Shown here piece after piece: positions 12,738 through 29,336 of a stretch of 32,000 nucleotides of DNA (positions are counted from its first letter, which is position 1; every line of letters begins with the position of its first letter). A program made the position numbers and the translations under genes. The stretch comes from Vibrio vulnificus CMCP6 (GTDB lineage Bacteria > Pseudomonadota > Gammaproteobacteria > Enterobacterales > Vibrionaceae): the NCBI RefSeq assembly GCF_000039765.1, contig NC_004460.2, positions 660,001 to 692,000 of the forward strand, given 5' to 3'. The notes under the pieces are model-generated. The model saw nothing but the letters and a program-made list of their open reading frames with translations, did not search any database and was not told the origin of the DNA.

Positions 12738-13832
12738 CAAACTTGGATTCAAGTACGAAGTACGACACCTCTGAACATAAAAACAGTGAGATGCGATAAT
12801 CATGAAGTTTGCTCCCGCCAAGAAGTAAAAAACATGAAATACACGCACCTCACTGAGAACGAAAGATATATCTGCACTCAGAAAGCAAGGAATTAGTACC
12901 GCTAAAATAGCTAAACAACTGGGTCGTCACAAAGCTACTATCTATCGAGAAATTGAACGCAATTCCCGATACAACAGACACTTTAAAAGGTATTCCTATC
13001 AGGCGTGGAGAGCCCAACAAATGGCTCGCAACCGGCTGAGTCGCTCGCGCAGAAATAAGCGCTATACCGAACTTGACTTCAGGTTACCTGAAGCCTTGCT
13101 ACGACTGGATTGGAGTCCTGACCAAATCGTCGGATACCTGAGGGGAAGAGGCTATCCAACAATGAGCCACGAGCTCATTTATCAGTACGTTTGGAACGAC
13201 AAAACTTTCGGTGGAACATTATGGAAGCACCTACGCCAATCCACTAAGAAAAGGCGTAAAAGGCATAACTCAAAAGACAGCCGTGGACGGCTAGCTGCAA
13301 AACGTCATATTACCGAAAGACCAGCAAATGCTGAGCATCGAAAAGAGCCTGGTCATTGGGAAATTGATACCGTCGTTGGCCGAGGAACCAAGCACTGTAT
13401 CGTGACTTTAGTCGACAGAATGACTGGCTATACTTTTATTGGGCAAATGGGCGACAGAACAAGCGAGTCGCTCAACGTAAGAATGAGCAAAATCATGACC
13501 CGCTCTGACTTGCCTTTTAAGACGATAACTGCGGATAACGGCACTGAATTTCATGGTTATGCGCAACTAGAAAAAAAATCATAACTGTCTGTTTTACTTT
13601 GTAAATCCATATCACTCATGGGAGCTAGGCACTAATGAAAACACCAATGGCTTGATACGACAATACTTACCAAAACGAACTTCTATGTCACACGTGACAC
13701 AGAAGTTCTGCAATGAAATTGCCCACAAATTAAATACGCGCCCACGCAAAAGACTTGGGTATAGGACACCAACGGAGTATATTCATGCGCATCTGTAGAA
13801 AGTGTCGCACTTCAAACTTGATACTAAGAAAC
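12738..13832 (+). mobile_element. IS30-family insertion sequence (~1.1 kb) with inactivated transposase
   Basis: Imperfect terminal inverted repeats. The left arm, ...CTTGGATTCAAGTACGAAGTACGACAC, ends at 12768. The right arm, GTGTCGCACTTCAAACTTGATACTAAG..., starts at 13802. Confidence 0.6.
12834..13798 (+). pseudogene. IS30-family transposase with at least two frameshifts
   Basis: MKYTHLTENERY then shifts frame near 12866-12872 into ISALRKQGISTAKIAKQLGRHKATIYREIERN (HTH). The DDE core runs through HWEIDTV...TADNGTEF. A second shift occurs in the A8 run at 13571-13578, after which the frame continues NPYHSWELGTNENTNGLIRQYLPK...RPRKRLGYRTPTE to TAG at 13796-13798. Confidence 0.85.
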
Positions 13833-14265
13833 ACCTCCTTGACCGTGGTATCATGCTCTTGGCGATTAACCTCGCGCTGGAACCTTGTGACGGTGCTATA
13901 TCCAGCAATAATACTCGATTCGAGATACCCCAAACACCTTAGCCATACGGACAACATTGAAGCAAAGTAGGTGTTCGAGCATAAATTCTTAGCAATCTAA
14001 TCTAGACTTTTCGAGAAGTAGGTAGCGGCCTTTTTACTATATAACTCTTCAACTTGCTCAGCCAATTGCCTTTTTAGCTTGGCCACTTCAGATCCTAGAT
14101 CTTTTTCTACTGACAGGTACTGGTGTCTTTCTTCAAGGCCCGACGCCAAGCCTAGATCTGGGATTAGTCTAACGAGAGGAGCCTCGCCGCCATAACTGCT
14201 ACCACTTTTTCTGCTAGAGTCATATAAATTCAGGAAAATGAGTATACGTTTTTCTTGTTTATCAT
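13833..14265 (-). pseudogene. IS3-family OrfA and OrfB N-terminal remnant (frameshifted)
   Basis: The minus-strand reading from ATG 14265 stops after 11 codons. The shifted frame ends EVAKLKRQLAEQVEELYSKKAATYFSKSLD*, a typical IS3 OrfA leucine-zipper tail (..ILKKAAAYFAK). Downstream, LGYLESSIIAGY...VNRQEHDTTVKEVF resembles an OrfB N-terminus. Confidence 0.5.
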
Positions 14266-14436: not shown

Positions 14437-15216
14437 ATGTTTGTATTATCAAAAGGATCGATATCTTTAAAAAGCTTAGATCGACTCTCATCGTATGTCG
14501 TGATCAGTTCACTGCTGGTGTTTTTTACGCAGCACCTGTACGAAAACCACATATTTCAGTACATCGACATTTGTGTTTTGATCTATTTTTCGCTGGAATT
14601 TTTCTTGAGAGTACACGTGCTGTCGTGGAAAAAATATTTTCAGTCTCCATCCTGTCAGTTTGACTTTTTTTTGCTGGTTGTCAGCCTAGTTGCCATACCC
14701 ATATCCAATATCGATAGTGTGATATATTTACGAGTGTTCAGGTTAATCTCGGTTATCCGCGTATTCAAGATCGTTCCAAACGGTTCACAAGTTCTGAGTG
14801 GATTAGCTCGGGCGATCAAAAGCTCCAAAGCGGTGTTGATCCTGCTTTTCTGCCTGCTGTGCTTCTTTTCACTTATTGGATTTATCCTGTTTTCCTCCAG
14901 CGTTCCCGAATATTTCAGTACTCCATTAACATCACTCAACACGGTCTTTGAGATATTTACCATTGAAAACTGGGGCGCATTGCCGGACTCTATCGATAAA
15001 ACTACCCATCCCCTGCTGCACGCAAGCGTCAATGCCTTTACCATCATCGTCCTGGTCAGCGGAGGCTTTATTGCGGTCTCTCTGGCGAATGCCGTGTTCG
15101 TTGATGAACTGGTCAGTGACAACAATGATGATATCAAGCGGGAGATTCTTGAACTAAGACGAGAAAATCGTGAGATTAAACAGCTACTTACGGAGATAAA
15201 CAAAAAGATTGGATAA
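14437..15216 (+). CDS. Six-TM voltage-gated ion channel homologue of the bacterial sodium channel (BacNav/NaChBac/NavAb) family
   Basis: Collinear with recalled NavAb across four regions. S2-S3: FSLEFFLRV...FDFFLLVVSLV. S4 has basic residues every third position: YLRVFRLISVIRVFK. Pore helix and filter: LNTVFEIFTIENWG, versus NavAb FQVMTLESWS. There is also an S6 and a C-terminal coiled coil (DDIKREILELRRENREIKQLLTEI). Confidence 0.75.
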   Translation: MFVLSKGSISLKSLDRLSSYVVISSLLVFFTQHLYENHIFQYIDICVLIYFSLEFFLRVHVLSWKKYFQSPSCQFDFFLLVVSLVAIPISNIDSVIYLRVFRLISVIRVFKIVPNGSQVLSGLARAIKSSKAVLILLFCLLCFFSLIGFILFSSSVPEYFSTPLTSLNTVFEIFTIENWGALPDSIDKTTHPLLHASVNAFTIIVLVSGGFIAVSLANAVFVDELVSDNNDDIKREILELRRENREIKQLLTEINKKIG

Positions 15217-15217
15217 G

Positions 15218-15240
15218 AACGCCTCTGATTCAGAGGCGTT
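15218..15240. terminator. Bidirectional terminator between the channel gene and the convergent five-gene cassette
   Basis: AACGCCTC-TGATTCA-GAGGCGTT perfect hairpin. It sits 2 bp after the channel stop and 6 bp from the stop of the HNH gene. Confidence 0.7.
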
Positions 15241-15245
15241 GTGGG

Positions 15246-17105
15246 TTATGCGATTTCCAGCGTATTATTGTTTTCTAGCAGGGCCATAAAATCATCGCTG
15301 GATCTGATTTTAAGATCGATTTTCATGAAATCGGCTATCACTTCAACGTCAGAGTTGACGTTACTGTCATCATCAATGGCTCTTGATAGATGTTCAGTCA
15401 GCGAACGAAACTGTAGTTTATCTTGGGCCAGCTTGGCTATCGACGCCTCTTCAAACGCATCCGTGTTGTCTTTGATTTGCTGAATTCTCATCTCAAAAAC
15501 TTCTTTTACCCGCTTAGTGCGCAACTCGGCCTTGGTTGAAAAAATATCGGCCTGATCAAGCAGCCAAACCACCAAGGTTGAACCAATCCCTGACACCATG
15601 ATGCTGGTCGCCTCTTTGAGATGCTCACCCACCACAGGGATCATGTCGACATACGGTGATATCACCTGCTCAAAGGTGAAACTCACATAGGTAACCACGG
15701 TCGTGGCAAGCAACTTGGTAATCGCATCGGCTTTTTGAGCTGGAGTGCTGTCACTGAACAAGATCTTGACCGCCTGAATCATGGCATTGAATCCTTCAGA
15801 AATGATCTTCAGCGCCCGTTTTAACATTCCAACAAACAGGTTAACAACCGCATTGATCAGGTACTTTACAAAGTTTTTCAGTGCGTCCTTGATAACATCA
15901 AACCCGATGTGTTTCAGGTTCGCCGTGATGTAACGATACGCTCTCTTAAACCGTAGACCTATCGCATCTAACTTGGAATCGGTCTCAAGCCCGGAAAGCA
16001 CGCCATGTTGTAAAATGTCTCGCAGCTCAAAGAAAATGGGCTTAATGATGAGAATGATGAGCTCACCAATCCCCTTTTCTTCCAGCTCATCTTTCGCCTG
16101 ACTGTAGGCTTCCTTCGCCAGCTTTTTTCCTATGCCATGATCTGTTTTTAACTTGTTGGCCACCACTTTGTTCAGATCACTTTCGATCGCCGCCTTGGCT
16201 GTTTTTTCCGCCTCCAGGGCATTATCCAGCGTTTTTTTCGTCGGCAGGTCATTTAACTCCTGCAGCTCCGACTTGGATAGGGTCCCCGCTCTTTGCTTAT
16301 CCTCAAGCCGGCCTCGCTTGTTCTCGACCCATTGCTGGTATTCACTCCAGGATTTATCTCCTTTTGACGTGTTAAGCTTTCCGGAAATATTCTTAAAATT
16401 CGCGTCCTGGTTGAGCGCCATTTTTAGATCATCGAGCGAAATTGCTTTACTCTGACCATACTCCTCAAAAGCATGTTTCAGCGGAACTTGGTGATCAACA
16501 TTAATCTCACTTTTGGAATAGTTGCTCCCCTGCTCTTTTTTCGCCTGGTTGAGCGCATCGCTTCGCCGGTATAAATAGCGTTTCTGCCCCTGTTCATTGA
16601 CTTCAAGCTCACTTTCGATGCGCCGGTTATTTTTGATACGTCTGTCCAGGTAGTCATCGAGCTTATCGGTATCTTCGACTATCTTCCGCTTACCTTTGTA
16701 TGGCCCCTTATCGTCTCGCTGCTTTCGCGTATGCTCGTCCAGACGTTGTTTATCGAGCCGATGATCGACCGCCATGCTCGCCGACGCATCATAACTGAAA
16801 CTCTGTAACTCATTCACCAACCGGGAGGCTGTAAGCCCCTTTTTTGACAACTTGAGTTTCGGGTGGCTGACCAGGCCGTCACACACGTTCAGCAGGATCG
16901 GCTTAACCAGTGACTCGCCGATGCCCGCTTGACTGTCAGCTACTTGCTCCTCAATGCTCTGTAACACTTCTAGGCTGTCTCGCTGATCGTGCAATTCGAC
17001 ATCGAGCAACACTTTGCAGGCCTGCAGTGGCGAGCAGCCCTCAAGCCGCTCAACTAGCTCGCTACTGGAGAATGACTCGATCTCAAAATCGTGCTTGCTT
17101 GCCAT
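15246..17105 (-). CDS. 619-aa fusion protein: N-terminal domain of unknown function, HNH (His-Me finger) nuclease motif, coiled coil, C-terminal hydrophobic/amphipathic helical domain
   Basis: I take the start at ATG 17105, behind GAGGAGG and 10 bp after the upstream stop. The track start 17192 overlaps the upstream gene. HNH motif: INVDHQVPL (DH at 16491-16496)...NFKNISGKLNTSKGDKS. Hydrophobic helices: GELIILIIKPIFFEL, YLINAVVNLFVGML, LLATTVVTYVSFTF, SIMVSGIGSTLVVWLL. Confidence 0.7.
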   Translation of the reverse strand: MASKHDFEIESFSSSELVERLEGCSPLQACKVLLDVELHDQRDSLEVLQSIEEQVADSQAGIGESLVKPILLNVCDGLVSHPKLKLSKKGLTASRLVNELQSFSYDASASMAVDHRLDKQRLDEHTRKQRDDKGPYKGKRKIVEDTDKLDDYLDRRIKNNRRIESELEVNEQGQKRYLYRRSDALNQAKKEQGSNYSKSEINVDHQVPLKHAFEEYGQSKAISLDDLKMALNQDANFKNISGKLNTSKGDKSWSEYQQWVENKRGRLEDKQRAGTLSKSELQELNDLPTKKTLDNALEAEKTAKAAIESDLNKVVANKLKTDHGIGKKLAKEAYSQAKDELEEKGIGELIILIIKPIFFELRDILQHGVLSGLETDSKLDAIGLRFKRAYRYITANLKHIGFDVIKDALKNFVKYLINAVVNLFVGMLKRALKIISEGFNAMIQAVKILFSDSTPAQKADAITKLLATTVVTYVSFTFEQVISPYVDMIPVVGEHLKEATSIMVSGIGSTLVVWLLDQADIFSTKAELRTKRVKEVFEMRIQQIKDNTDAFEEASIAKLAQDKLQFRSLTEHLSRAIDDDSNVNSDVEVIADFMKIDLKIRSSDDFMALLENNNTLEIA

Positions 17106-17115
17106 AATTACCTCC

Positions 17116-18039
17116 TCATGCGCACAAAGAGTGTGACTGAGACATCTCGTACACCGCTTTAGCTTTCTCGCTGTCGGCGGCAATGAACTCACCCGATTCT
17201 GACAAGTAGCCTAGGCTTGCCATCTGTTTCAGGACGATCGACAAGTTAAACAAGGCACGAAACTCTTCTAAGTGAACAATCGGCAAACGCTTAAAATCGA
17301 GTTTGTGTGCAAACACATCACTGTTTTCGGCCATCTGATGCATGCGTTGGGTCTGGATTCCGTATTCGAACCGGTCCAGTAACTTGCTGTAGTTGACCAC
17401 CAGTTCATCGAAATACACCACCACGTTATCAATTGACTCTTCGATCACCCTAAGTTGCTTCTGTTGTGCCTCCAGCTTGATGATCTCTTCACCTACTCGC
17501 GTACGCTCCTGCTTGGCACGCTCGAGCGACTCTTTGGCTTTCTTACGCGAAAAGAAGCCCAAAGTCAGCACCATGCCCAGTGTATCCAACAGGCCCATCT
17601 GATTAAAATCAATCAACATGATCTCGGATTTTGCCCTGACACCACGCTGCGGTTTAATCTCCAGAATGCGGTCATCGAATAGCTCTTCAAAAGGTTGCCC
17701 CTTAACCGTAACGTTGTGCATCCGCTTTGATACCTTGATAAAACGCTCGAAGTGAATCACGTAAATGTCCTGCTTCTGACGGTTGATCCGGCTGATCTTA
17801 GTCTCGATACTGGCAGATATCTGCCTGACTTCTTGCTCGTAAACCTGCTTGGCATCGGCAAACCGTTTTTCCGTTTCGGCAATGATTGATTCCGCTTCAT
17901 CGGCATAGTGCTGACCCGTAAAGGCGTTCCACACCTTAGAGCACGCCTGCTTTACAGCACCAAAGGCTCTCGATACGCTACTTTTTGCCGCACTAATTTT
18001 GCTTGAACACCAACTTCCTAAGCCGCTAAATAAGCCCAT
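17116..18039 (-). CDS. 307-aa coiled-coil protein with an MGLFSGLGSW N-terminus and one central hydrophobic segment; unknown family (PspA/ESCRT-III-like is only a hypothesis)
   Basis: AAGGA lies before the ATG, 3 nt after the upstream stop. Long heptad-like helical stretches. Central hydrophobic segment GLLDTLGMVLTLGFFS. Confidence 0.6.
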   Translation of the reverse strand: MGLFSGLGSWCSSKISAAKSSVSRAFGAVKQACSKVWNAFTGQHYADEAESIIAETEKRFADAKQVYEQEVRQISASIETKISRINRQKQDIYVIHFERFIKVSKRMHNVTVKGQPFEELFDDRILEIKPQRGVRAKSEIMLIDFNQMGLLDTLGMVLTLGFFSRKKAKESLERAKQERTRVGEEIIKLEAQQKQLRVIEESIDNVVVYFDELVVNYSKLLDRFEYGIQTQRMHQMAENSDVFAHKLDFKRLPIVHLEEFRALFNLSIVLKQMASLGYLSESGEFIAADSEKAKAVYEMSQSHSLCA

Positions 18040-18042
18040 ACA

Positions 18043-18447
18043 TTATTCCTTATCAATCATGGCGTAGCCTTCCGCCACCATATCGTTCATGGCACTCACC
18101 CAACGCTGCATCTTCTTCGCTTCATAGCCGTCGATCGCTAGTGCGTCGCTGAGCTTGCCCATAAACGCCTCTTCCTCGATGCACACTTCACCGTCGGCCA
18201 ACAGGATCCCGAACAGTTCAACCAGTATGATGCGTTTGCTTTTCCCTTTTGATTTTGCCAGCACTTTGATCACGGACTCAATGTTGTCCTGCTTGGTAAG
18301 GGTATGCTCCGTCAGACCACATTCCTGCACGAACGACTGATAAATCATCTGCTCTTCGGCCTTCTGCTCACCGTCCAACCCCATGGCATATTTCGCCAGT
18401 TCCAGGAAATTCTTCTTCTCGCCAATATTCAGTTCGGATAAGTACAT
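18043..18447 (-). CDS. 134-aa TerB-like domain protein
   Basis: Two-lobed pattern: FLELAKYAMGLDGEQKAEEQMIYQSF and LVELFGILLADGEVCIEEEAFMGKLSDAL. This resembles the TerB / DjlA-N-type repeat (A.ADG....E). GGGGA lies before the ATG. Confidence 0.55.
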   Translation of the reverse strand: MYLSELNIGEKKNFLELAKYAMGLDGEQKAEEQMIYQSFVQECGLTEHTLTKQDNIESVIKVLAKSKGKSKRIILVELFGILLADGEVCIEEEAFMGKLSDALAIDGYEAKKMQRWVSAMNDMVAEGYAMIDKE

Positions 18448-18463: not shown

Positions 18464-19624
18464 TTAGTACGCTGTTTCTAGTTTTTGTTTTTCGTTGCCT
18501 TTCGGGTCATAGACCGTCTCAATGCGCTTGCTTATTTCACCGGCATCGTCATACAGGTATTCGAACACCAGGTTTCCGGCCTGGTCGAATTCACAACCCC
18601 GCGCCGGTTTTCCGTCCTCATTAAACGTCATCTGGTATTTGAGCTGGGTACCGGCAAAGGTATCACTGCTGCGCTTTTTGCCGTTTTTATAGTAAATCTG
18701 CGTCACCTGACCGGAGTGCTTGTCCTCGATCTGGGTCACTTTGCAATCGCCTAGCCGCTTGACGAAATCGTCCGTGTCAATCGTCAGATCCTGATGCCTG
18801 GCCAGTTCATTGGTCAGGCTCACCAGGTTATCGACCCGTAACTGCTGGATCTGGGTGGTTAACTGTTCAAGCTGGGCAATACCGGCCTGCTTGGCAGTGA
18901 AATCACGCTTATCATCCAGTTGATGAAGCGTTTGCAACAAGGCTTTCAGGCTGCTGTGGGACTGGCCCACCAGCTTCTGCACGTGGATAAACTCTTCGCT
19001 CTGTTTTTTTGTCAGTGACTGGGCACATTCCGCTTGGGTGCGTGCCAACTCAGAGTGTAGATGACGGCTTTCCTGGTGCTGCTCCTGGCTCAATGCATGT
19101 AGAGCCGCGATCTGCCTTTGCTGCTCTGCTGCCTGCTGCGCGATCAGTCCATCGGTTCTCGCTTGTATCGCAGACAAGTTGGCCCCCGTGCTGGTGTGCT
19201 GCTCCTGTAACTTTTGATCCAGCGCCAGCGCTGCACCTTTTAGCTCAGCCTCAGTCTCGGCAAGCTGTGAAGAGAGCTGAGTCAGCCCGCTTACCACTTC
19301 CTTCTCCGCAGCGGACAGGCGCGCTATCACTTGTTCTCCCTGCTGGCTAACTTCAGCAGTAACGTGCTGGATTGTGTCACCAGCAGCGGTTTTCATCACA
19401 CTGAGCAACTGGTCCGTTTTATCGCTGAGATGTTGGCTTAGCTCACCAGCTTGCCTGTCCATTTGCGCACAGTGCTGATCAAACCTGGCATTTACCCGCT
19501 CAGATTCATCGAGTGCCCATTGCTGCATCTGATGCTTTTTGTTGATCGAGATAGCTTGAAGTAGCACAACCAAGCCAGCACAGCCAACCAATGTCCAAAA
19601 TAGTAGCTCTAACGTAATTTCCAT
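18464..19624 (-). CDS. 386-aa single-pass membrane protein with a long Q/A/E-rich coiled coil and a C-terminal beta-hairpin-repeat (MORN/YD-like) module
   Basis: N-terminal TM segment LLFWTLVGCAGLVVLLQAISI. About 230 aa predicted helical. The C-terminus QIYYKNGKK...FNEDGKP...FDQAGNLVFEYLYDDAGEISKRIETVYDPKGNE has a G/Y-periodic repeat pattern. AAGGGA lies before the ATG. Confidence 0.6.
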   Translation of the reverse strand: MEITLELLFWTLVGCAGLVVLLQAISINKKHQMQQWALDESERVNARFDQHCAQMDRQAGELSQHLSDKTDQLLSVMKTAAGDTIQHVTAEVSQQGEQVIARLSAAEKEVVSGLTQLSSQLAETEAELKGAALALDQKLQEQHTSTGANLSAIQARTDGLIAQQAAEQQRQIAALHALSQEQHQESRHLHSELARTQAECAQSLTKKQSEEFIHVQKLVGQSHSSLKALLQTLHQLDDKRDFTAKQAGIAQLEQLTTQIQQLRVDNLVSLTNELARHQDLTIDTDDFVKRLGDCKVTQIEDKHSGQVTQIYYKNGKKRSSDTFAGTQLKYQMTFNEDGKPARGCEFDQAGNLVFEYLYDDAGEISKRIETVYDPKGNEKQKLETAY

Positions 19625-19664: not shown

Positions 19665-20657
19665 TCAGGAGACCGATGCCATCGGCTGGAGCTCGATATC
19701 CCAAATATTGTCGCCGAAGCTGTTTAGCCACTTTTTCAGGTAAAGCGAATCAATCACACTCGCGCTAATGTGCAGCGAATCATCACGCTCAACGACTTGC
19801 TGGTCCTTTGACAGCGGTGTTTCGCGCAGAAAGTAACCATCTGACTTGGTGATACAGAACTGCAGTCGACACTGCTGACCTTCGCCAAAGCCAAACCTTC
19901 CATCCGCATCGTATTTTGCCAGGTCAAAATCCACCGGGCGGTCAAAGATGAAGGTGGACAAGTGCGCGATGCTCACCCGATGGATGGCCAAAGTTCGCTC
20001 ATTCGTGTAACCTTCGAAACGACAGACTAGGTAAAGTCTGTTACCCTGCTGCGCGATACCAAGTGGCATAACGGTCGCTTTTTTCGGTTCGTTTTTGCTG
20101 TTGGTGTATTCAAGGCTCAACCACCGGTCTTCGTACAGACCCTGGCTGATGATCCTGAGTACTTCTTCGTCCAGATGCGGGGCGAGCAGAGGCTGGTTTT
20201 CACTTACAACTCTAACCTTCTTCAGCCAGTTTCGCTCTTTTTTGTTAGGTGAGGCCGGATTAAGCTGGTAGTCCGCCTCATAAAAGAACCCGCTCATGGC
20301 AGCCAACACTTTGCTCGGCAAAAGGCCCGCCAGGTATTCCCGAGCCAAGTGAAACAGCAGGGACTCCTGGGCCGAGAGGGTCGGCAGACTGAGTACCGCG
20401 TTGGCTTGGGTCAGCTTATATCCATAAGGTTTGCTTTTGTCATTGCGGTCAAGGTTAAACTGCTCTGATAAGGTTTCCATGATCCTCTGTAAAGTTCGGA
20501 TATCGCGTTCAATGCCTACCTCAGCCAACTGACTATGCAGCTCTTTAACCGTGATATACCTAGACTTGGGAATGCGTTTAAGGATCTCAAGGGCCAAGTT
20601 CAGAGATTCATTCAGAGATGACTTTTTTTTCATTTTAAGCTCATTTGTATACTGCAT
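19665..20657 (-). CDS. WYL-domain transcriptional regulator (N-terminal wHTH, WYL, C-terminal extension), BrxR/CapW-like
   Basis: wHTH-like segment ITVKELHSQLAEVGIERDIRTLQRIMETL. WYL-type core DRWLSLEYTNSKNEPKKATVMPLGIAQQGNRLYLVC. C-terminal ~100 aa domain. It is the first gene of the cassette. An alternative start is at 20633 (MKKKSS). Confidence 0.78.
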   Translation of the reverse strand: MQYTNELKMKKKSSLNESLNLALEILKRIPKSRYITVKELHSQLAEVGIERDIRTLQRIMETLSEQFNLDRNDKSKPYGYKLTQANAVLSLPTLSAQESLLFHLAREYLAGLLPSKVLAAMSGFFYEADYQLNPASPNKKERNWLKKVRVVSENQPLLAPHLDEEVLRIISQGLYEDRWLSLEYTNSKNEPKKATVMPLGIAQQGNRLYLVCRFEGYTNERTLAIHRVSIAHLSTFIFDRPVDFDLAKYDADGRFGFGEGQQCRLQFCITKSDGYFLRETPLSKDQQVVERDDSLHISASVIDSLYLKKWLNSFGDNIWDIELQPMASVS

Positions 20658-21080
20658 CTCGTGCGTCGAATAGCAAAAACTATCACAAAGACGCTATACA
20701 TTGCGTGATTTACGCCAGATTTATATTAGAGTTTTTTGATAGAAATCATACTCATATCGTTTATGATAATTTTACCGCTAGCTGCGTCAGAATATGTCGG
20801 ATGCAAAACACTGATTTCGGCAACAAAGTCCTTTTCATCTTACTCTCGGGAGGGTTCTGGAAGACTATCAAAGGTTCGGCTAACTAATGGCTGCTACGAA
20901 ATACCCTGAAAGCTCTTTTACTAACGCATCAGTTTAACCCTTGGTATCGTGGGAACGACTTATGTGTTTCCTTTAGGAGCACATTTCCGGATAATCCGAT
21001 ATCCTAGGAAGACAAAACCATCACTTATAATACGCTCACAAATCCATATTTTGTCGCCACTTACCAAATTTTGGAAAAAA

Positions 21081-21148
21081 AAGAGCCGCAAAAGCGGCTC
21101 TAGATAGTTTGTGATTTTCGAAGTGTCGGCTTACTTCTCTTTACCAAA
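21081..21148. repeat. Right copy of the direct repeat; also the native guaC terminator plus the last guaC codons
   Basis: The hairpin AAGAGCCGC-AAAA-GCGGCTCTT is preceded on the plus strand by A8, which is a T8 tail on the minus strand after guaC. It aligns with 11445-11518. Confidence 0.6.
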
Positions 21149-21394
21149 CACGTTGTTCTCTTGCTCAAGAACGCGGATGAACGTGGTGCGTTTTGTTAGC
21201 TCGCGAAGCTCGGCTGCGCCTACATAAGTACAAGTTGAACGCACGCCGCCAAGGATGTCTTGAATGGTGCCGTGAACACTGCCACGGTAAGGCAATAGTA
21301 CGGTTTTTCCTTCCGCTGCTCGGTAGCCTGCGACGCCGCCAGAGTGCTTGTCCATCGCGCTCTTTGAAGACATGCCGTATAACCTCAAGCGCAA
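21131..21394 (-). pseudogene. guaC: 3'-terminal fragment (~85 of ~347 codons) of GMP reductase gene guaC
   Basis: [76 protein letters not shown] is collinear with the recalled E. coli GuaC C-terminus ([34 protein letters not shown]...[33 protein letters not shown]). Homology stops near 21385-21400. Confidence 0.85.
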
Positions 21395-22364
21395 CCAAAA
21401 CAACCTTTTAAAAACAAATACTTAATGGAATATACATGTATAAAACAAGGTAAAATATGGCGAATAAGCACTCTCTTTTACGTTGTTTTTCAATGGGCGC
21501 CGCCATTTTTGCCGCCACTAAATATCCATACGAGCACTAGACCAACTAATAAACAGTCCCAAAGTCATAATTCCAAAAAGACACATACTCATCACTATGC
21601 TTAAGTGAGCATAAAGAAGAGGCATGGTAAAATCTTATTACTTACCACTATACTGCACGCAACATACCTGTAGTGGCAATCAAATCCCACAAGAGGAGTG
21701 CCATTCAGCACTCCTTTTCCGTTTTTAGAGGCTCTCAATGGCAGGTGTAACCCAGTTTCTTTATGGCACATGGCAATACTGTGTTCTTCTTGTTCACTCA
21801 CCTTCAGCCCTATATCGAAGTTAGGCAAAAGCATAACCCGCGCGTTTACACCAAGTTCTGTTGGTTAGCTCTAAACTGGCGAATCAAAAGGGACAACAAA
21901 GACCACAAATAGGTAAGCCAAGCACTATAAGAATCACGTGATGCTTTGGCCCGATATTTAAAATCCCAAACAAATACCATTGTGCGATTTCGGTATTTTC
22001 ATACATTGCTTGCACTTTCATTTTTCACGCATAGTGATTGCATTGATATTGGAATGATTGAAAACAAAGCGTCATTCGCGTTTACTTTTGAATCCAATAC
22101 ATAACTAAAAGAGTCGGCTGCTCTTTCTGCTGAAAGCGCCACAGATGGGCGCAGGACAGCTTAAATAACCTAACCAAATTCAGGCGCCTGTTAGGTGAGG
22201 CGCAGACCAATGCCAGTATTCTGAGTATCAATGCAAGCATCATCACTCGGTCTGAGGGAGTTAATTGGGAATATCACCTAAGCCTTTAACTTAAACCTTA
22301 AAGGTTGAGTTTGACTACACAAACTCACAAGCCAGTTTGTAGCACGAGCTCTGTAAGGGGCTCC

Positions 22365-22881: not shown

Positions 22882-23178
22882 ATGCCTCTTATTAATCAAA
22901 AACATACCTACCACCTTCTTTTTCTATTGCTCGCCACCTTATTAGTACTCTGCTTCGCTACCCCATCCTTTGCCACTGACTTGTTTGCAGGTGGTAAAGC
23001 CACCATCAAATCAACCGCAGGTGACGATTCAGCGGCAGAAATGGCCATGCTAACCGCAGGTGCTCTCGGCGCCGCGGTTCTCGGTTTCACGACACGTAAC
23101 TGGTTCGCCGCCATTGGCGGTTTTGCTGGCGGTATGATTTTCTGGGAAGTCATTAAGCCACTGGTTGGCCTAGCTTAA
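22882..23178 (+). CDS. traA: F-type propilin TraA
   Basis: A long leader ends PSFA. The mature part, TDLFAGGKATIKSTAGDDSAAEMAMLTAGALGAAVLGFTTRNWFAAIGGFAGGMIFWEVIKPLVGLA, is collinear with recalled F pilin (DLMASGNTTVKATFGKDSSVVKWVVLAEVLVGAVMYMMTKNVKFLAGFAIISVFIAVGMAVVGL). Confidence 0.7.
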   Translation: MPLINQKHTYHLLFLLLATLLVLCFATPSFATDLFAGGKATIKSTAGDDSAAEMAMLTAGALGAAVLGFTTRNWFAAIGGFAGGMIFWEVIKPLVGLA

Positions 23179-23195
23179 AAGTCGGGCGGTGATGT

Positions 23196-23498
23196 ATGGA
23201 CAACCAACAGCTTTTTTTTGCTATCCCAAAACACCTCAGCAAAGGCAAGCGCATATCAGGTTTACCCCGAGACGAAGTCTTGCCCGGGTTTCTTCTCTTT
23301 GTGCTCTTCTTCTTAGCCGGTAAATACTTGATAGGCCTTATCTTTGCAGCCATTTGGTTTATAGGACTTCGGTATATCAAAGTTCAGTACGGTGAAAACA
23401 TCATCGCCTTAACCCTCTACTGGTGGGGGAACACCTCACTCAATCACAGTGTCTTCAAACACACTCCCGCAGCGCAAAAGCGTTACTGGCTCTCTTAA
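23196..23498 (+). CDS. traL: Type-F conjugative transfer protein TraL
   Basis: 100 aa. The pattern IPKHLSKGKRISGLPRDEVLP followed by a TM segment matches the TraL pattern (RFP..L......GLPLDE..P). It sits between traA and traE. Confidence 0.75.
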   Translation: MDNQQLFFAIPKHLSKGKRISGLPRDEVLPGFLLFVLFFLAGKYLIGLIFAAIWFIGLRYIKVQYGENIIALTLYWWGNTSLNHSVFKHTPAAQKRYWLS

Positions 23499-23511
23499 GA
23501 GGGGCACATTT

Positions 23512-24081
23512 ATGGATAACCAACACCAAGGTAACTTACTTGCACTGAGTAAGTTACTGAACTTTCTCCTCGTCTTTGGGTTTGCGGCATCAATGCTCGT
23601 GAACGTGGTCTTAGGTCTTAGCTTGGCGAAAACCTTATCGGAAAAGAGTCGAACTCTCGTTCCCCCTACGATTTCACAAGCATTTACGATTTCAGATACG
23701 GCCATTGATGCGCCTTACCTTCAGCTTATGGGCGAATACTTTTTAAAGCTCAAGCTCAACGTGACACCTGCGAATGTCTTTAGACAATACGGCCTCTTGC
23801 TCGACTATGTGCCTACAGAAAACTGGTCAACGATTCAACCGGTCCTAGTCAAAGATGCCGAGCATCTTAAAAAGTACAACACGACCAGTCGCTTTGACGC
23901 CCTGCCTGGGCGAACTGAAATTTCGATTGAAAATAGGCAGTTCAAACAGACGGGCCACCTTACTAAAACCGTTGGCGATCGCACACTGCCATCAGAGCTT
24001 GTAACCTACACCGTTCAAATGGATTACAGCAACGGCGTGATTGAACTCATTGGCATCAAGAAACAAGGAGCAAAAGAATGA
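23512..24081 (+). CDS. traE: Type-F conjugative transfer protein TraE
   Basis: N-terminal TM segment. PPTISQAFTISDTAIDAPYLQLMGEYFLKLKLNVTPANV is collinear with F TraE (TPMAFNAPFAVSQNSADASYLQQMALSFIALRLNVSSETV). I take the start at ATG 23512, after the traL stop, not the track start 23449. Confidence 0.85.
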   Translation: MDNQHQGNLLALSKLLNFLLVFGFAASMLVNVVLGLSLAKTLSEKSRTLVPPTISQAFTISDTAIDAPYLQLMGEYFLKLKLNVTPANVFRQYGLLLDYVPTENWSTIQPVLVKDAEHLKKYNTTSRFDALPGRTEISIENRQFKQTGHLTKTVGDRTLPSELVTYTVQMDYSNGVIELIGIKKQGAKE

Positions 24082-24821
24082 AACCATTATCATGGCTAAT
24101 GAGCGTGCTTATCGCCACTCTTAGCCCTTTCGCATTAGCAAGCAATGTACAAAAGGCCACGTTTCCCTTTGCGGACGGCGACACCATTCCCGTGAGTTTA
24201 TCGTCTGTGAACATCAACCGCCTCGTGGTCGAAGACGATAAAATCCTTAACATCACCTGCCCTCACGGTTTTTGTACCACTAACGGTATCCAAAAAGATA
24301 AAACGGGCTCGGTGTCTCTAAAGCTGAATGTTGCGCTCCCTTTTACCGCCCACGTTCTCACTCAAAAAGGGCGTCTTTTCGCACTGTTCATTACCCCAAA
24401 AGCCACGCCAGGCATCGTCACTGCGTTTACACCAACCGACCGTCACCTATCTCAACCTTCCGTATTTGAGCGCGGCTTTGATTACCCAGCGGCCATCGCT
24501 AACTTCACCAAAGCCATGATGACATGGAAAGAAAAAGGCACACCGATTTCAGGATTTAGCCTTCATCCGGTAGACCCTAATACCCTGCCTAAGAAGGACT
24601 CCTTACTGCCCGTCACTCCGCAAACCGTGTTCGTGGGCCGGGATTATTCGGGCATCATTTACGAGGTGAAGAACAAATCCAGTGACACCGTCACACTCAC
24701 AACCACACAGTTCTACAGTTACGCCGCTCGAAGCGCGGCGCTGGATACATTTGAACTCGGCCCAAATCAAACCACGCACTTGTATGTAGTGACAGGAGGA
24801 GGAGTGAATCATGCTCGATAA
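24078..24821 (+). CDS. traK: Type-F conjugative transfer protein TraK (secretin-like core component)
   Basis: Signal peptide, ~245 aa. The call rests on the ATGA overlap with traE, the gene-order position and TraK-like size. Similarity to recalled F TraK is weak. Confidence 0.75.
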   Translation: MKPLSWLMSVLIATLSPFALASNVQKATFPFADGDTIPVSLSSVNINRLVVEDDKILNITCPHGFCTTNGIQKDKTGSVSLKLNVALPFTAHVLTQKGRLFALFITPKATPGIVTAFTPTDRHLSQPSVFERGFDYPAAIANFTKAMMTWKEKGTPISGFSLHPVDPNTLPKKDSLLPVTPQTVFVGRDYSGIIYEVKNKSSDTVTLTTTQFYSYAARSAALDTFELGPNQTTHLYVVTGGGVNHAR

Positions 24822-26292
24822 CTGGAGAAAACGCCTTTTTAGTGACACAGATGGCGACTTTGAGCAAGGTGGCGAGATTAATCAGCGCACCGCATCAAGA
24901 AACAACACCGTCACCATTATCGCCGTCTCTGCCCTGCTCCTTGCCGCACTAGCATTGTATAAATACACTAGGCCGCCTCCCCCTACACAAAAAGAAAGCC
25001 ATCAAGAACCTGTCGAATTTGGTGCCATCATTGAGCAAGATTTTGTCGAAACAGACAACCAATCGGCGCTCTCCCTACAGCAAAAAACGCTGTCTGCCCT
25101 AGAAAAGCAAATAGCGGATTTGACCAAATCTATGCGCACTCATAAAGAAGAGACCGAGCGTAAAATCGAGCAAGCAAAAGAGAAGACCGCTCGCTTAGTT
25201 GAGGAACAAGTACGTGAAGAGTTTCGAAATAAAGAAGCGCAGCTTCAATCCCGTATTGATGAACTCGAACATAACACTTCGGAGTTAGTCAATACCGAAC
25301 CATACAGCACCATCCACACCCAAAGGCCGATGAATAGCTCAGAAACATTTGGACAGCACAAGCTTCCGCCTAGACCTATTGCCTCCTCTAACAACAACCC
25401 CGATATGGCGCAGATGCAATATCAGCCCTCAGAGCAAATCCCTTTCAATCGCAATGAGTTTGATAGCTTTAATTTCTTTTGGGAAAGCGATGAAACAACC
25501 TATCACCGCACCACTGAGAACTATGTGCCAACTGGAACCTTTGTCACCGCAGTGGTGACAGGAGGCGCTGACACCAATGCCGGAGTGCTTGGCCAAGGAG
25601 ACACGACCCCCGTGGTCTTTCAAACCATTCATGAAGGTATCTTACCCAATGGGGAAAAATCCAAGCTCAGCAACTGCACCATTACAGGTTCATCCTACGG
25701 TGAGATATCGTCAAGCCGCGGCATTATCCGCACTAACCGCTTGAGCTGTATCCAAGACGAAGGGCATATCTTAGACGTCGCCATCAAAGGAACGGCGTTT
25801 AACTTTGGACGCAACGGCATACGTGGCACCACCATCTTAAAAAATGGTGAGATTGTTCAAATGGCGGGGATTGCCGGTATTTTGAATGGCATCGGCGAGA
25901 CAGGTCAAGCGCTCTCACAAACCACCTCCACCTCAGCATTCGGTACAACCTCAAGCATCAACAGCCAAGATGCAGCGTTGAACTTACTCGGCAATGCTAC
26001 CTCAAGTGTGGGAGAAAAACTCTCCGATTACTACATTGGTCTTGCAGAGCTCTATCACCCCATCGTGGAAATCAACCCAGGTGCCGTTGTCAATATTGTC
26101 TTCTTAGAAGGATTCCCGCTGGATCCTCTTATGGCCGAAGAGTACGAACGCCAGCAATTGGCAGAGCAAAGCATGTCGAGTCAATCGAATCAAATCCTCG
26201 ATGTGATCACTAATGCCCCCCTTAATCCATTGGCGAAAGAGTTGTCTACACAAGGCATTGAGGTTCCCCCAACTCCATTTGGCCGCAAATAA
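24811..26292 (+). CDS. traB: Type-F conjugative transfer protein TraB (VirB10-like)
   Basis: 493 aa. N-terminal TM segment, coiled coil, proline-containing linker, and a C-terminal beta-rich domain (GTFVTAVVTGGADTNAGV...). Size and position match F TraB. Confidence 0.8.
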   Translation: MLDNWRKRLFSDTDGDFEQGGEINQRTASRNNTVTIIAVSALLLAALALYKYTRPPPPTQKESHQEPVEFGAIIEQDFVETDNQSALSLQQKTLSALEKQIADLTKSMRTHKEETERKIEQAKEKTARLVEEQVREEFRNKEAQLQSRIDELEHNTSELVNTEPYSTIHTQRPMNSSETFGQHKLPPRPIASSNNNPDMAQMQYQPSEQIPFNRNEFDSFNFFWESDETTYHRTTENYVPTGTFVTAVVTGGADTNAGVLGQGDTTPVVFQTIHEGILPNGEKSKLSNCTITGSSYGEISSSRGIIRTNRLSCIQDEGHILDVAIKGTAFNFGRNGIRGTTILKNGEIVQMAGIAGILNGIGETGQALSQTTSTSAFGTTSSINSQDAALNLLGNATSSVGEKLSDYYIGLAELYHPIVEINPGAVVNIVFLEGFPLDPLMAEEYERQQLAEQSMSSQSNQILDVITNAPLNPLAKELSTQGIEVPPTPFGRK

Positions 26293-26298
26293 AGGAAT

Positions 26299-26691
26299 AT
26301 GAGTATGTTTAAATTCTCATCAATGCTCTTTGCTGCACTGCTCTTAACAGGCTGCGCAGCAGGTCTCGGCGAAGATTATAGCTGCACGAAAGTTGGCGGC
26401 GTACCAGGCTGCACCACCATGGACGAAGCCCGTCGAAATATAGAACTCTACGCCAGCTCAGAAAACCAAACTTCCACTGAACAAACTCATCGTGTTCCAA
26501 CAGATTTTATGACCTTACCGAGACGCACACGACAAGGTGAGCCAACACGAACGAATGATGTAGTGAAAAAAGTCACCGTTTTTCCTTTTATTGATAAAAA
26601 CGGTCATTACATTGATACCACAGATATCTATGTCATCCTCGATGACAGCCGTTGGACAGGTAGCCCAGTGCGCGCCATTTGGAAGGACTGA
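26299..26691 (+). CDS. traV: Type-F conjugative transfer lipoprotein TraV
   Basis: Lipobox LLTGCAAG. YSCTKVGGVPGCTTMDEA matches F TraV FECNATTSDTCMTMEQA. The C-terminus PFIDKNGHY...VILDDSRW resembles APYIDNQDVYH...FVIKPSAW. Confidence 0.85.
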   Translation: MSMFKFSSMLFAALLLTGCAAGLGEDYSCTKVGGVPGCTTMDEARRNIELYASSENQTSTEQTHRVPTDFMTLPRRTRQGEPTRTNDVVKKVTVFPFIDKNGHYIDTTDIYVILDDSRWTGSPVRAIWKD

Positions 26692-26693
26692 TT

Positions 26694-29334: not shown

Positions 29335-29336
29335 CC

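What the first reader, a model, noticed from the sequence alone, without database searches (positions are those of the whole stretch)
15246..17105. HNH nuclease motif embedded in a 619-aa protein whose C-terminal third is a bundle of hydrophobic or amphipathic helices
Seen in sequence:
- The motif INVDHQVPL...NFKNISGKLNTSKGDKS spans aa 201-252, with the DH codons at 16491-16496. This is a canonical His-Me finger pattern (DH..P then N....N..KG-K).
- It is followed by a K/E-rich coiled coil.
- From about aa 345-520 (DNA 15546-16073) there are four hydrophobic stretches: GELIILIIKPIFFEL, YLINAVVNLFVGML, LLATTVVTYVSFTF, SIMVSGIGSTLVVWLL.
- The N-terminal ~200 aa carry no motif I recognise.

A soluble-type nuclease fold tethered to a membrane-inserting or pore-like helical domain is an unusual architecture. 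It could be a dual-action effector (membrane plus DNA), or a nuclease held inactive at the membrane until released.
Basis: partly seen in the sequence, partly recalled or inferred. Interest (0 to 1): 0.7.

Follow-up and report, generated by a model that had tools for sequence, protein, structure and literature searches.

The report
Nuclease subunit of Dionysus-like defence cassette
This gene encodes a DNA-cutting enzyme fused to a greasy helical tail, and it is the last gene of a conserved, untested five-gene cassette that looks like a nuclease-carrying relative of a recently described membrane-linked anti-phage system.

Summary
Window 15246-17105 (-) is a real 619-aa gene with a strong ribosome-binding site.

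- **Nuclease site.** The residues D204, H205, N236, N245 and K248 are invariant or nearly so across a family of at least 1171 sequence clusters. The domain model (pLDDT 94.7) has the beta-beta-alpha topology, and its top structural matches are Cas9 HNH domains. Each of those matches is weak on its own.
- **C-terminal helices.** They are real and conserved but of intermediate hydrophobicity. In this copy they fall below the level of true membrane helices. In most homologues the last two form a membrane-grade hairpin.
The gene ends a conserved cassette of WYL regulator, membrane-anchored coiled-coil protein, TerB, a 307-aa protein and the HNH protein. The cassette occurs in Vibrio, Shewanella, Campylobacterota and Clostridium. 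Here it lies beside conjugation genes.
- **Relatives.** The last 92 residues match the C-terminus of DinA from the Dionysus anti-jumbo-phage system (hhalign probability 90.7%). The TerB protein matches DinB. PADLOC lists the family as PDC-M40B, an untested candidate.

Most likely it is the nuclease effector of a membrane-associated defence system. It is a new variant of a known kind, and its function is untested.

The parts
15246..17105 (-). Gene for the 619-aa HNH-plus-helical protein ('HNH619'), including its stop codon
   Evidence: ORF and translation. Homologues number 37 clusters and 1171 representatives. PADLOC PDC-M40B matches at E 3.9e-14.
17111..17116 (-). Ribosome-binding site AGGAGG, 5 nt before the ATG and overlapping the stop codon of the upstream gene (translational coupling)
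   Evidence: Sequence read.
16731..17105 (-). Conserved N-terminal helical domain (aa 1-125) of unknown function
   Evidence: S25, P26, L27, F103 and Y105 are conserved. AF2 predicts helices at pLDDT 50-70. No Pfam, NCBIfam or PDB hit.
16140..16724 (-). HNH / His-Me finger nuclease domain (aa 128-322): beta-hairpin, strand ending in D204-H205, two-helix insertion, strand 237-241, helix carrying N245, then three packing helices
   Evidence: AF2 domain model with pLDDT 94.7 and pTM 0.88. Foldseek top hits are Cas9 HNH domains, Endonuclease I, SspE-CTD and BrxU. Viral library hits include HNH, GmrSD-C and Endo VII proteins.
16491..16496 (-). Codons of catalytic D204-H205
   Evidence: Invariant or nearly invariant. 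hhalign aligns them to SpCas9 D839-H840.
16362..16400 (-). Codons N236...N245..K248: the pattern N-x8-N-x2-K-x-D, the same spacing as SpCas9 N854...N863..K866.D868
   Evidence: Invariant columns. The Cas9 sequence was confirmed against the PDB.
15552..16079 (-). Hydrophobic or amphipathic helical module (aa 343-518): H1 343-367, H2 403-449 (strongly amphipathic), and the H3 455-481 / H4 493-518 hairpin. E360 is invariant; G347 and R388 are nearly invariant. D520 and F522, also nearly invariant, lie just after it
   Evidence: Hydropathy of this copy and of the family. Conservation. AF2 helices at pLDDT 50-80.
15249..15524 (-). C-terminal module (aa 528-619: a long helix plus a small terminal domain) shared with Dionysus DinA
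   Evidence: hhalign probability 90.7%, E 1.2e-6. HNH619 aa 528-619 aligns with DinA 470-557, reaching both C-termini.
17116..18039 (-). Partner gene p307 (307 aa): amphipathic Gly/Ser-rich N-terminus, helical body, short hydrophobic segment. Possibly DinC-like
   Evidence: Co-conserved upstream of the HNH gene in the 17 close loci whose upstream flank is present, and in C. butyricum at E 4.8e-40. PADLOC gives LeoB C-terminus at 3.5e-6 and PDC-M09A at 0.0057. hhalign against DinC gives only E 0.015-0.024.
18043..18447 (-). TerB-like protein (134 aa)
   Evidence: Pfam TerB E 6.9e-5, 23.6 bits against a cutoff of 24.4. hhalign against Dionysus DinB gives E 7.7e-5. Conserved in all close cassettes.
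18464..19624 (-). p386: N-terminal membrane helix (aa 7-25), long Q/A/E-rich coiled coil, beta-rich C-terminal domain
   Evidence: KD19 2.26, Hessa sum -0.4. Conserved C-terminus, with coiled-coil length varying so that the protein ranges from 262 to 961 aa among orthologues.
19665..20657 (-). WYL-domain transcriptional regulator (330 aa), first gene of the cassette
   Evidence: Pfam WYL 4.4e-9 and WCX 0.005. PADLOC WYL 1.4e-15. A WYL gene sits upstream in L001, L005, L006, L019, L020 and L022.
20763..20790 (-). Sigma-70-like promoter match upstream of the WYL gene (consensus match only)
   Evidence: The number of matches in the region is no higher than in shuffled sequence.
15219..15241 (.). 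Perfect 10-bp inverted repeat (AACGCCTCTG-att-CAGAGGCGTT) between the convergent stop codons: probable bidirectional terminator
   Evidence: Sequence read.

Best explanation
HNH619 is the nuclease effector subunit of a conserved, WYL-regulated, membrane-associated anti-phage cassette. The cassette order is WYL regulator, membrane-anchored coiled-coil protein, TerB, p307, HNH619. It is carried as cargo next to the transfer genes of a conjugative element in a Vibrio (probably V. vulnificus).

**Shown here.**
- The central domain is a catalytically complete Cas9-type His-Me finger.
- The C-terminal third is a conserved helical module of intermediate hydrophobicity. Its last 92 residues are homologous to the C-terminus of Dionysus DinA.
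- TerB and p307 are co-inherited with the gene across phyla.

**Inferred.**
- The helical module and the DinA-like tail hold the nuclease at the inner membrane, or in a complex with p307, TerB and p386. This would keep it away from the chromosome or keep it autoinhibited.
- On infection (DNA entry, membrane perturbation or a phage-made vesicle) the complex would bring the HNH head onto phage DNA, which it cuts.
- The WYL protein would keep the operon repressed until a damage or infection signal arrives.
For: **Nuclease.**
- D204, H205, N236, N245 and K248 are invariant or nearly so.
- All full-length relatives keep DH..N..N.
- Distant members hit Pfam GmrSD_C (1.3e-5), GH-E (4e-4) and HNH_4 (5e-3).
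- The AF2 domain model has pLDDT 94.7 and beta-beta-alpha topology.
- 24 of the top 27 Foldseek PDB hits are Cas9 chains or isolated Cas9 HNH domains, Endonuclease I, SspE-CTD or BrxU.
- hhalign puts the DH on Cas9 D839/H840.

**System.**
- The same p386-TerB-p307-HNH order occurs in 17 loci from Vibrio, Idiomarina, Shewanella, Oceanospirillaceae, Campylobacterota and an unassigned metagenome contig (L005), and again in Clostridium butyricum. Another subtype pairs the HNH protein with a TM-TerB fusion.
- Neighbouring genes in these loci include McrBC, RmuC, a type III restriction enzyme, integrases and recombinases.
- PADLOC PDC-M40B matches. PDC systems are untested guilt-by-embedding candidates.

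**Dionysus link.**
- The DinA C-terminal module aligns at probability 90.7%, E 1.2e-6.
- TerB aligns with DinB at E 7.7e-5.
- Dionysus is experimentally validated. DinA and DinC form foci at the sites where the phage's early infection vesicles form, and AF3 predicts that DinC binds the DinA C-terminus.

**Membrane association.**
- The family-wide H3/H4 hairpin has median KD19 of 1.74 and 1.97, similar to DinA (1.73) and DinC (1.97).
- p386 has a bona fide membrane helix.
- TerB is discussed as membrane-associated in the defence literature.

[quoted passage not shown] It becomes toxic when its membrane anchor is removed.
Against: - No experiment exists for this family.
- Each structural match to an HNH domain is individually weak (best E 0.32 against the PDB, 5e-3 against the viral library). 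No Pfam HNH model hits this protein itself.
- In this copy no helix reaches membrane-helix hydrophobicity. A soluble bundle is therefore possible.
- The C-terminal model has low confidence (pLDDT 50-80), so its fold could not be compared.
- Homology between p307 and DinC is not significant (E 0.015-0.024).
- The DinA head is unrelated to HNH.
- The gene order and number differ from Dionysus.
- The defence role rests on guilt by association.
Confidence: 0.55

Rival explanations
1. Dual-action abortive-infection effector. On activation the C-terminal helices, perhaps together with p307, insert into the host inner membrane as an alpha-helical pore while the HNH domain degrades the chromosome, killing the infected cell.
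For: - Amphipathic helices flank a hydrophobic hairpin, which is the layout of alpha-pore-forming toxins.
- The weak whole-model Foldseek matches include SmhB, AhlB and XaxB.
- DinC of the related Dionysus system was described as a ClyA/Hbl-like alpha-PFT.
Against: - The Foldseek matches have E > 1 on a low-confidence region.
- Dionysus itself does not permeabilise or kill the host, and infected cells survive.
- Conserved buried polar residues (E360, R388, D520) suggest a specific fold rather than a generic pore.
Confidence: 0.2
2. The C-terminal helices form a soluble helical bundle that serves for oligomerisation, partner binding or autoinhibition of the nuclease. Membrane contact, if any, comes only through p386.
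For: - This copy's helices score like soluble controls. Its KD19 maximum is 1.46, against 1.38 for the DEAD-box helicase in the same window, and its summed Hessa energy is +4.3 or higher.
- The helices carry many charged residues, with an invariant E360 and nearly invariant R388 and D520.
- H2 has a high hydrophobic moment (0.5-0.6), typical of bundle packing.
Against: - In most homologues H3 and H4 are membrane-grade (66% and 90% at or above 1.6).
- Every partner in the cassette points to the membrane: p386 has a membrane helix, the TerB of another subtype is fused to one, and small TM proteins occur in a third subtype.
Confidence: 0.2
3. A housekeeping 'DNA repair protein' (as GenBank names it), or a component of a Ter-type metal or tellurite stress response, rather than an immune effector.
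For: - Source annotations call homologues 'DNA repair protein' or 'ATPase involved in DNA repair'.
- A TerB partner is present.
- A Cronobacter plasmid homologue lies beside TerD, TerY-C and VWA genes.
Against: - No ATPase or repair domain is detectable.
- Distribution is patchy and mobile-element-borne, next to integrases, IS elements, tra genes and restriction systems.
- The WYL-regulated layout is typical of defence operons.
- TerB proteins occur in the validated defence systems Bunzi, Shango and Dionysus.
Confidence: 0.04
4. A secreted or contact-dependent polymorphic toxin, with helices that translocate the nuclease into a rival cell.
For: - Four distant members weakly hit GH-E. From my own knowledge, that family is known from polymorphic toxins.
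- The hydrophobic helices could serve as a translocation domain.
Against: - The nuclease is central, not C-terminal.
- No PAAR, LXG, Rhs or other trafficking domain was found.
- There is no downstream immunity gene. A convergent channel gene follows after 29 nt.
- The cassette has a conserved cytoplasmic regulator and partners.
Confidence: 0.02

Closest known systems
Dionysus anti-jumbo-phage system (DinA/DinB/DinC; bioRxiv 10.1101/2025.09.30.679545)
   Same: - It has a TerB-like middle gene (hhalign E 7.7e-5).
- Its large subunit has a soluble head, a charged helical linker, hydrophobic helices and a C-terminal module homologous to HNH619 aa 528-619 (probability 90.7%).
- It has a helical partner of about 300 aa with a Gly-rich amphipathic N-terminus.
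- It has a predicted membrane association.
   Different: - The DinA head is not an HNH domain (E 0.27).
- Homology between p307 and DinC is not significant, and p307 lacks DinC's Gly-rich four-TM core.
- This cassette has four structural genes in a different order, plus the extra TM-coiled-coil protein p386.
- No phenotype is known for it.
PADLOC candidate PDC-M40, component B (Payne et al., bioRxiv 10.1101/2024.01.29.577857)
   Same: HNH619 matches the PDC-M40B model over aa 147-526, covering both the HNH domain and the helices (E 3.9e-14). A distant family member matches at 2.4e-68.
   Different: - PDC-M40 is a three-gene cassette.
- None of this cassette's other proteins match PDC-M40A or C.
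- PDC systems are untested and undescribed beyond family identifiers.
Cas9-type HNH domain (Pfam HNH_4) and GmrSD/BrxU/SspE DUF1524 His-Me fingers
   Same: - It shares the motif DH-x(n)-N-x8-N-x2-K-x-D, with identical spacing after the first Asn.
- A beta-hairpin precedes the DH strand and no zinc-binding cysteines are present.
- These are the top structural neighbours.
   Different: - A two-helix insertion of about 17 residues lies between His and the first Asn.
- No Pfam model reaches threshold.
- The domain is embedded between an unknown N-terminal domain and a hydrophobic helical module.
SNIPE membrane-bound nuclease (PMC13190303)
   Same: It is a functional analogue: a nuclease tethered at the inner membrane so that entering phage DNA, not the chromosome, is cut. 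Removing its anchor makes it toxic.
   Different: - SNIPE is a single protein with an N-terminal TM helix, a DUF4041 domain and a GIY-YIG nuclease.
- There is no sequence relationship.
- Here the hydrophobic module is C-terminal and of lower hydrophobicity, and the protein works in a multi-gene cassette.

Membership tests
His-Me finger / HNH nuclease superfamily | Catalytic His at the end of the first strand, preceded by Asp | tested here: met
   D204-H205 end strand 200-205 in the AF2 model. They are invariant or nearly invariant.
His-Me finger / HNH nuclease superfamily | Beta-beta-alpha fold with the metal-binding Asn on the helix | tested here: met
   - Strand 200-205, strand 237-241 and helix 242-248 carrying N245, at pLDDT above 90.
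- 24 of the top 27 Foldseek PDB hits are His-Me nucleases, but the best E is only 0.32.
His-Me finger / HNH nuclease superfamily | Match to a curated HNH sequence model | tested here: not met
   - No Pfam or NCBIfam hit for this protein or its 36 closest relatives.
- Only distant family members hit GmrSD_C (1.3e-5), GH-E (4e-4) and HNH_4 (5e-3).
His-Me finger / HNH nuclease superfamily | Metal-dependent nuclease activity | not testable with these tools
   Needs the purified protein.
Dionysus defence system | TerB-like DinB component | tested here: met
   Pfam TerB E 6.9e-5, just under the curated cutoff. hhalign against DinB gives E 7.7e-5, probability 62%.
Dionysus defence system | DinA: hydrophobic helices plus conserved C-terminal module | tested here: met
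   The C-terminal 92 aa align to DinA 470-557 at probability 90.7%, E 1.2e-6. The hydrophobic segment itself does not align with confidence.
Dionysus defence system | DinA N-terminal / 'MAEBL-like' head | tested here: not met
   hhalign of the N-terminal halves gives E 0.27. Here the head is an HNH nuclease.
Dionysus defence system | DinC alpha-pore-forming protein with four TM segments | tested here: inconclusive
   - p307 against the DinC family gives E 0.015-0.024, probability 2-3%.
- Both hit PADLOC PDC-M09A: DinC at 8.4e-25, p307 at only 0.0057.
- p307 lacks the Gly-rich core and has a KD19 maximum of 1.33.
Dionysus defence system | Three-gene order DinA-DinB-DinC and protection against jumbo phages | tested here: not met
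   Four structural genes in the order p386-TerB-p307-HNH. The phenotype cannot be tested here.
PADLOC PDC-M40 | All three components A, B and C present | tested here: not met
   Only B matches. No neighbour in any sampled cassette matches A or C.
Integral membrane protein (classical TM helices) | At least one 19-residue window with KD of 1.6 or more, or a favourable insertion free energy | tested here: inconclusive
   - This copy: maximum 1.46 and +4.25 kcal/mol.
- Family medians for H3 and H4 are 1.74 and 1.97, with 15% of H4 segments at or below 0 kcal/mol.
- True TM controls score 2.26 to 3.12.
- No dedicated topology predictor was available.
Alpha-pore-forming toxins (ClyA/Hbl/Nhe, colicin pore domain) | Significant fold similarity | tested here: not met
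Polymorphic toxin systems | C-terminal toxin domain, trafficking domain and adjacent immunity gene | tested here: not met
   The nuclease is central, no trafficking domain was found, and a convergent channel gene lies downstream.

The most novel reading that the evidence does not exclude
HNH619 and p307 form a Dionysus-type complex that inserts into a phage-derived membrane (the early infection vesicle of jumbo phages) or into the DNA-entry site. The complex carries its own nuclease to DNA that is otherwise shielded from cytoplasmic nucleases. This would be an immune system that breaches a viral compartment and cuts the genome inside it.
Probability: 0.12. Interest if true: 0.85.

Novelty: new variant of a known kind. 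Interest (0 to 1): 0.6.

Why it matters
- **How TerB and Dionysus-type systems stop phage.** This is not understood, and the Dionysus effector step is only hypothesised. A widespread relative in which the DinA-like subunit carries an obviously catalytic nuclease gives a directly testable readout: point mutants in H205 or N245, DNA cleavage, and localisation. It suggests that this class of membrane-linked systems can end in DNA destruction.
- **A second lineage of membrane-tethered nucleases.** After SNIPE, this would be an independent example of self/non-self discrimination by location rather than by sequence.
- **Annotation.** More than a thousand protein clusters currently labelled 'DNA repair protein' or 'hypothetical' could be re-labelled.

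Tried and rejected
- **Sequence libraries.** Pfam, NCBIfam, PHROGs and PDB searches with the protein and with its family profile found nothing useful. The only hits were weak tape-measure and low-complexity matches.
- **Whole-model Foldseek against the PDB.** The long helices dominated and nothing was significant.
- **DinA head as a degenerate HNH.** By eye there is a 'YTG...N..IS' resemblance. hhalign gives E 0.27, so I rejected the idea.
- **p307 as a DinC homologue.** The similarity is co-linear but not significant even with 120 DinC relatives, so I left it open.
- **Small proteins in the Firmicute-type cassettes.** I tested whether the 88-90 aa proteins are TerB. They are not (E about 0.5). 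They are a TM helix plus a small beta domain.
- **DNA search of PLSDB.** The cassette has no match, and the tra genes match Vibrio plasmids at only 72-75% identity.
- **Convergent Ion_trans gene.** I do not count it as part of the system, because it is absent from the Shewanella, metagenome and Clostridium loci.
Full report
**1.

A longer GTG-initiated version (648 aa) would overlap the upstream gene. The ATG at 17105 is preceded by AGGAGG at 17111-17116, which overlaps that gene's stop codon, so the 619-aa protein is the likely product and is translationally coupled to its neighbour. The DH codons (16491-16496) and the range of the hydrophobic helices (15546-16073) are as stated.

**2. The HNH assignment holds, on converging but individually modest evidence**

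No curated model recognises the protein. Pfam, NCBIfam, PHROGs and PDB sequence searches all fail, with the single protein and with its family profile. Five lines of evidence nevertheless agree.

- **Conservation.** Among 37 homologues at 20-92% identity the only invariant residues in the first 350 positions are F103, Y105, H205, N236, N245 and K248, and D204 is nearly invariant. In 126- and 72-sequence alignments reaching about 17% identity, D204, H205, N236, N245 and K248 stay at 90% or more.
- **Retention of the motif.** Of 184 sequences, 166 match a profile of the motif region. The other 18 are 118-471 aa long: 16 are fragments of 380 aa or less, and two (P0104, 471 aa; P0107, 442 aa) match only the C-terminal part of the family profile and were not examined further.
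- **Spacing.** The pattern after the first Asn is N-x8-N-x2-K-x-D, identical to SpCas9 N854...N863..K866.D868. hhalign places VDHQVP on Cas9 VDHIVP, that is D839/H840, at E 0.001 and probability 21%.
- **Weak transitive hits.** Distant family members hit three His-Me families in Pfam: GmrSD_C (3 members, best 1.3e-5), GH-E (4 members, 4e-4) and HNH_4 (1 member, 5e-3).
- **Structure.** An AlphaFold2 model of aa 128-322 is confident (pLDDT 94.7, pTM 0.88). It shows a beta-hairpin, a strand ending in DH, a two-helix insertion, a second strand, and a helix carrying N245. Foldseek against the PDB gives no significant E-value (best 0.32). Even so, 24 of the top 27 hits are Cas9 chains or isolated Cas9 HNH domains, Vibrio Endonuclease I, SspE-CTD or BrxU. 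The viral library returns HNH, GmrSD-C, Endonuclease I and Endo VII proteins, with a best E of 5e-3.

**3. The C-terminal helices are real, conserved and of intermediate hydrophobicity**

In this copy the best 19-residue Kyte-Doolittle (KD19) mean is 1.46 and the best summed Hessa free energy is +4.25 kcal/mol.

| Protein or segment | KD19 | Hessa sum (kcal/mol) |
|---|---|---|
| HNH619, best window in this copy | 1.46 | +4.25 |
| p386 N-terminal helix (true TM) | 2.26 | -0.4 |
| Cation-efflux protein (true TM) | 2.38 | -0.8 |
| Ion channel (true TM) | 3.12 | -5.9 |
| DEAD-box helicase (soluble) | 1.38 | +9.2 |
| Family median, helix 3 | 1.74 | 4.4 |
| Family median, helix 4 | 1.97 | 2.1 |
| Dionysus DinA | 1.73 | 3.5 |
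| Dionysus DinC | 1.97 | 2.9 |

All values in the table are except the first row.

- Across the 126 relatives, helices 3 and 4 reach 1.6 or more in 66% and 90% of members respectively. These family values are close to those of DinA and DinC, which their authors call TM and pore-forming.
- Helix 2 is strongly amphipathic, with a hydrophobic moment of 0.5-0.6.
- Outside the HNH motif, the only residues at 90% or more in both broad alignments are G347, E360 (strictly invariant), R388, D520 and F522, all in or next to these helices. This argues for a specific fold or interface rather than a generic anchor.
- The full-length model is poor here (pLDDT 50-80, pTM 0.38). The weak Foldseek matches to tripartite alpha-pore-forming toxins (E 2.4-8) therefore cannot be used.

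My reading is that this is an amphitropic or partner-dependent membrane module. It is neither a constitutive polytopic membrane domain nor demonstrably a soluble bundle.

**4. The decisive evidence is the operon context**

The gene is the last of five tightly spaced minus-strand genes:

| Gene | Coordinates | Evidence |
|---|---|---|
| WYL regulator | 19665-20657 | Pfam WYL 4.4e-9 |
| p386: TM helix, long coiled coil, beta-rich C-terminus | 18464-19624 | |
| TerB-like protein, 134 aa | 18043-18447 | Pfam TerB 6.9e-5 |
| p307 | 17116-18039 | |
| HNH619 | 15246-17105 | |

- **Conservation of the cassette.** The p386-TerB-p307-HNH order recurs in 17 of the 18 close loci from Vibrio, Idiomarina, Shewanella, Oceanospirillaceae, Campylobacterota and an unassigned metagenome contig (L005). 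The remaining locus, L007, is cut by the contig end just upstream. The order recurs in Clostridium butyricum, where hhalign gives TerB 2e-25 and p307 5e-40, and where the first protein has grown to 961 aa.
- **Other subtypes.** One pairs the HNH protein with a TM-TerB fusion and a WYL gene (L019). Another pairs it with a small TM-plus-beta protein and a p307 relative (L004, L020).
- **Neighbourhoods.** These loci contain McrBC, RmuC, a type III restriction enzyme, integrases and recombinases.
- **This window.** The cassette lies between IS remnants on one side and, on the other, a truncated guaC fragment followed by an F-type transfer operon. It is cargo at the edge of a conjugative element.
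- **Size of the family.** There are 1171 representatives at E of 1e-3 or better and 671 at 1e-10 or better, among 50%-identity clusters.

**5. Comparison with known systems**

- **PADLOC.** It models the family as PDC-M40B (E 3.9e-14 here; 2.4e-68 for a distant member). PDC-M40 is a three-gene candidate found by 'guilt by embedding'. It has not been tested or described, and none of this cassette's other proteins match its A or C components.
- **Dionysus (bioRxiv 10.1101/2025.09.30.679545).** This three-gene system (DinA, TerB-like DinB, alpha-PFT-like DinC) blocks phiKZ-like jumbo phages. It leaves infected host cells alive and unlysed. DinA and DinC form foci where the early infection vesicles form, those vesicles are not seen in cells carrying the system, and AF3 predicts that DinC binds the DinA C-terminus.
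- **Tests against Dionysus.** I took the authors' sequences from their supplementary table and recovered full-length DinA.
  - HNH619 aa 528-619 aligns end-to-end with DinA 470-557, at probability 90.7% and E 1.2e-6 (E 5.2e-5 with whole alignments).
  - The TerB protein aligns with DinB at E 7.7e-5.
  - p307 and DinC show only co-linear, non-significant similarity (E 0.015-0.024). Both touch PADLOC PDC-M09A, DinC at 8.4e-25 and p307 at 0.0057.
  - The N-terminal heads are unrelated.

The cassette is therefore related to Dionysus but is not a member of it. HNH619 is a DinA-like scaffold whose head is a nuclease.

**6. Mechanism**

- **Shown.** The protein has a catalytically complete HNH domain and a conserved hydrophobic or amphipathic module with a DinA-type tail. 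It is co-inherited with TerB, p307, a membrane-anchored coiled-coil protein and a WYL regulator.
- **Inferred.**
  - The tail and helices dock the nuclease at the membrane or to its partners, restraining it from the chromosome.
  - Infection-linked membrane events let it reach and cut phage DNA.
  - WYL controls expression. From my own knowledge, WYL regulators such as BrxR and CapW repress defence operons.
- **Precedent.** SNIPE shows that spatial restriction of a nuclease to the membrane is a working immune strategy, and that loss of the anchor causes self-cleavage.
- **Confidence.** I put about 0.55 on this reading. I put about 0.2 each on a pore-plus-nuclease abortive effector and on a purely soluble regulatory bundle. 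The 'DNA repair'/Ter-stress and secreted-toxin readings get small weights.

**7. Verdict**

This is a real and interesting but not unprecedented feature. It is a new variant of a known kind, belongs to a large uncharacterised family, and offers clear experiments. Interest 0.6.

Noticed in passing
window 22882-31015 (+): An F-type conjugative transfer operon: TraA-like pilin, TraL, TraE, TraK, TraB/TrbI, TraV, TraC, TrbI_Ftype, TraW and TraU. It is only 72-75% identical to known Vibrio plasmids, so the window lies on an undescribed conjugative element.
   Followed up: partly
window 26679-27875 and 27821-28993 (+): TraC is split into two overlapping ORFs, one matching TraC_F_IV and one matching the P-loop domain. 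This is either a frameshifted pseudogene or a sequencing error.
   Followed up: no
window 21131-21403 (-), terminator 21082-21101: Only the 3' end of a guaC/IMPDH-family gene is present (Pfam IMPDH positions 261-334 of 345, E 4.6e-10), followed by a strong terminator. It is probably an integration or rearrangement scar between the defence cassette and the tra genes.
   Followed up: partly
window 13021-13584 (+) and 13997-14149 (-): A truncated IS integrase (rve, E 9e-8) and a short ORF that looks by eye like an IS3 OrfA (no Pfam hit) flank the cargo region on the other side.
   Followed up: no
window 14437-15216 (+): A 259-aa single-domain Ion_trans channel (E 3.4e-27) with a C-terminal coiled coil is convergent with the HNH gene. 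The two stop codons are separated by a perfect 10-bp hairpin at 15219-15241. The gene is not conserved next to the cassette elsewhere.
   Followed up: partly
window 18464-19624 (-); L008, L022: The coiled coil of the first structural protein varies enormously between orthologous cassettes (whole protein 262 aa in Idiomarina, 386 aa here, 961 aa in Clostridium butyricum), while the TM helix and the beta-rich C-terminus are kept. This recalls length-variable tails in other membrane-linked defence systems.
   Followed up: partly
L021 (Cronobacter dublinensis plasmid pA137-2) 3029-10237: A distant HNH619 relative (559 aa) with a 177-aa partner lies next to a TerD, TerY-C and VWA gene cluster. This is a second, independent link between the family and Ter-type genes.
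   Followed up: no
BFVD entry A0A514A1D6 (Aeromonas phage LAh10): The best viral structural match to the HNH domain (E 5e-3, probability 1.0, 145 columns) is a 524-aa phage protein annotated 'cobalamin adenosyltransferase'. It may be a phage-encoded relative or a mis-annotation.
   Followed up: no
window 15246-17105 (-), aa 360, 388, 520: E360 is strictly invariant, and R388 and D520 nearly so, inside or beside the hydrophobic helices in alignments down to about 17% identity. These charged residues are unexplained. They could form a buried salt bridge, a protonation switch or a partner contact.
   Followed up: no
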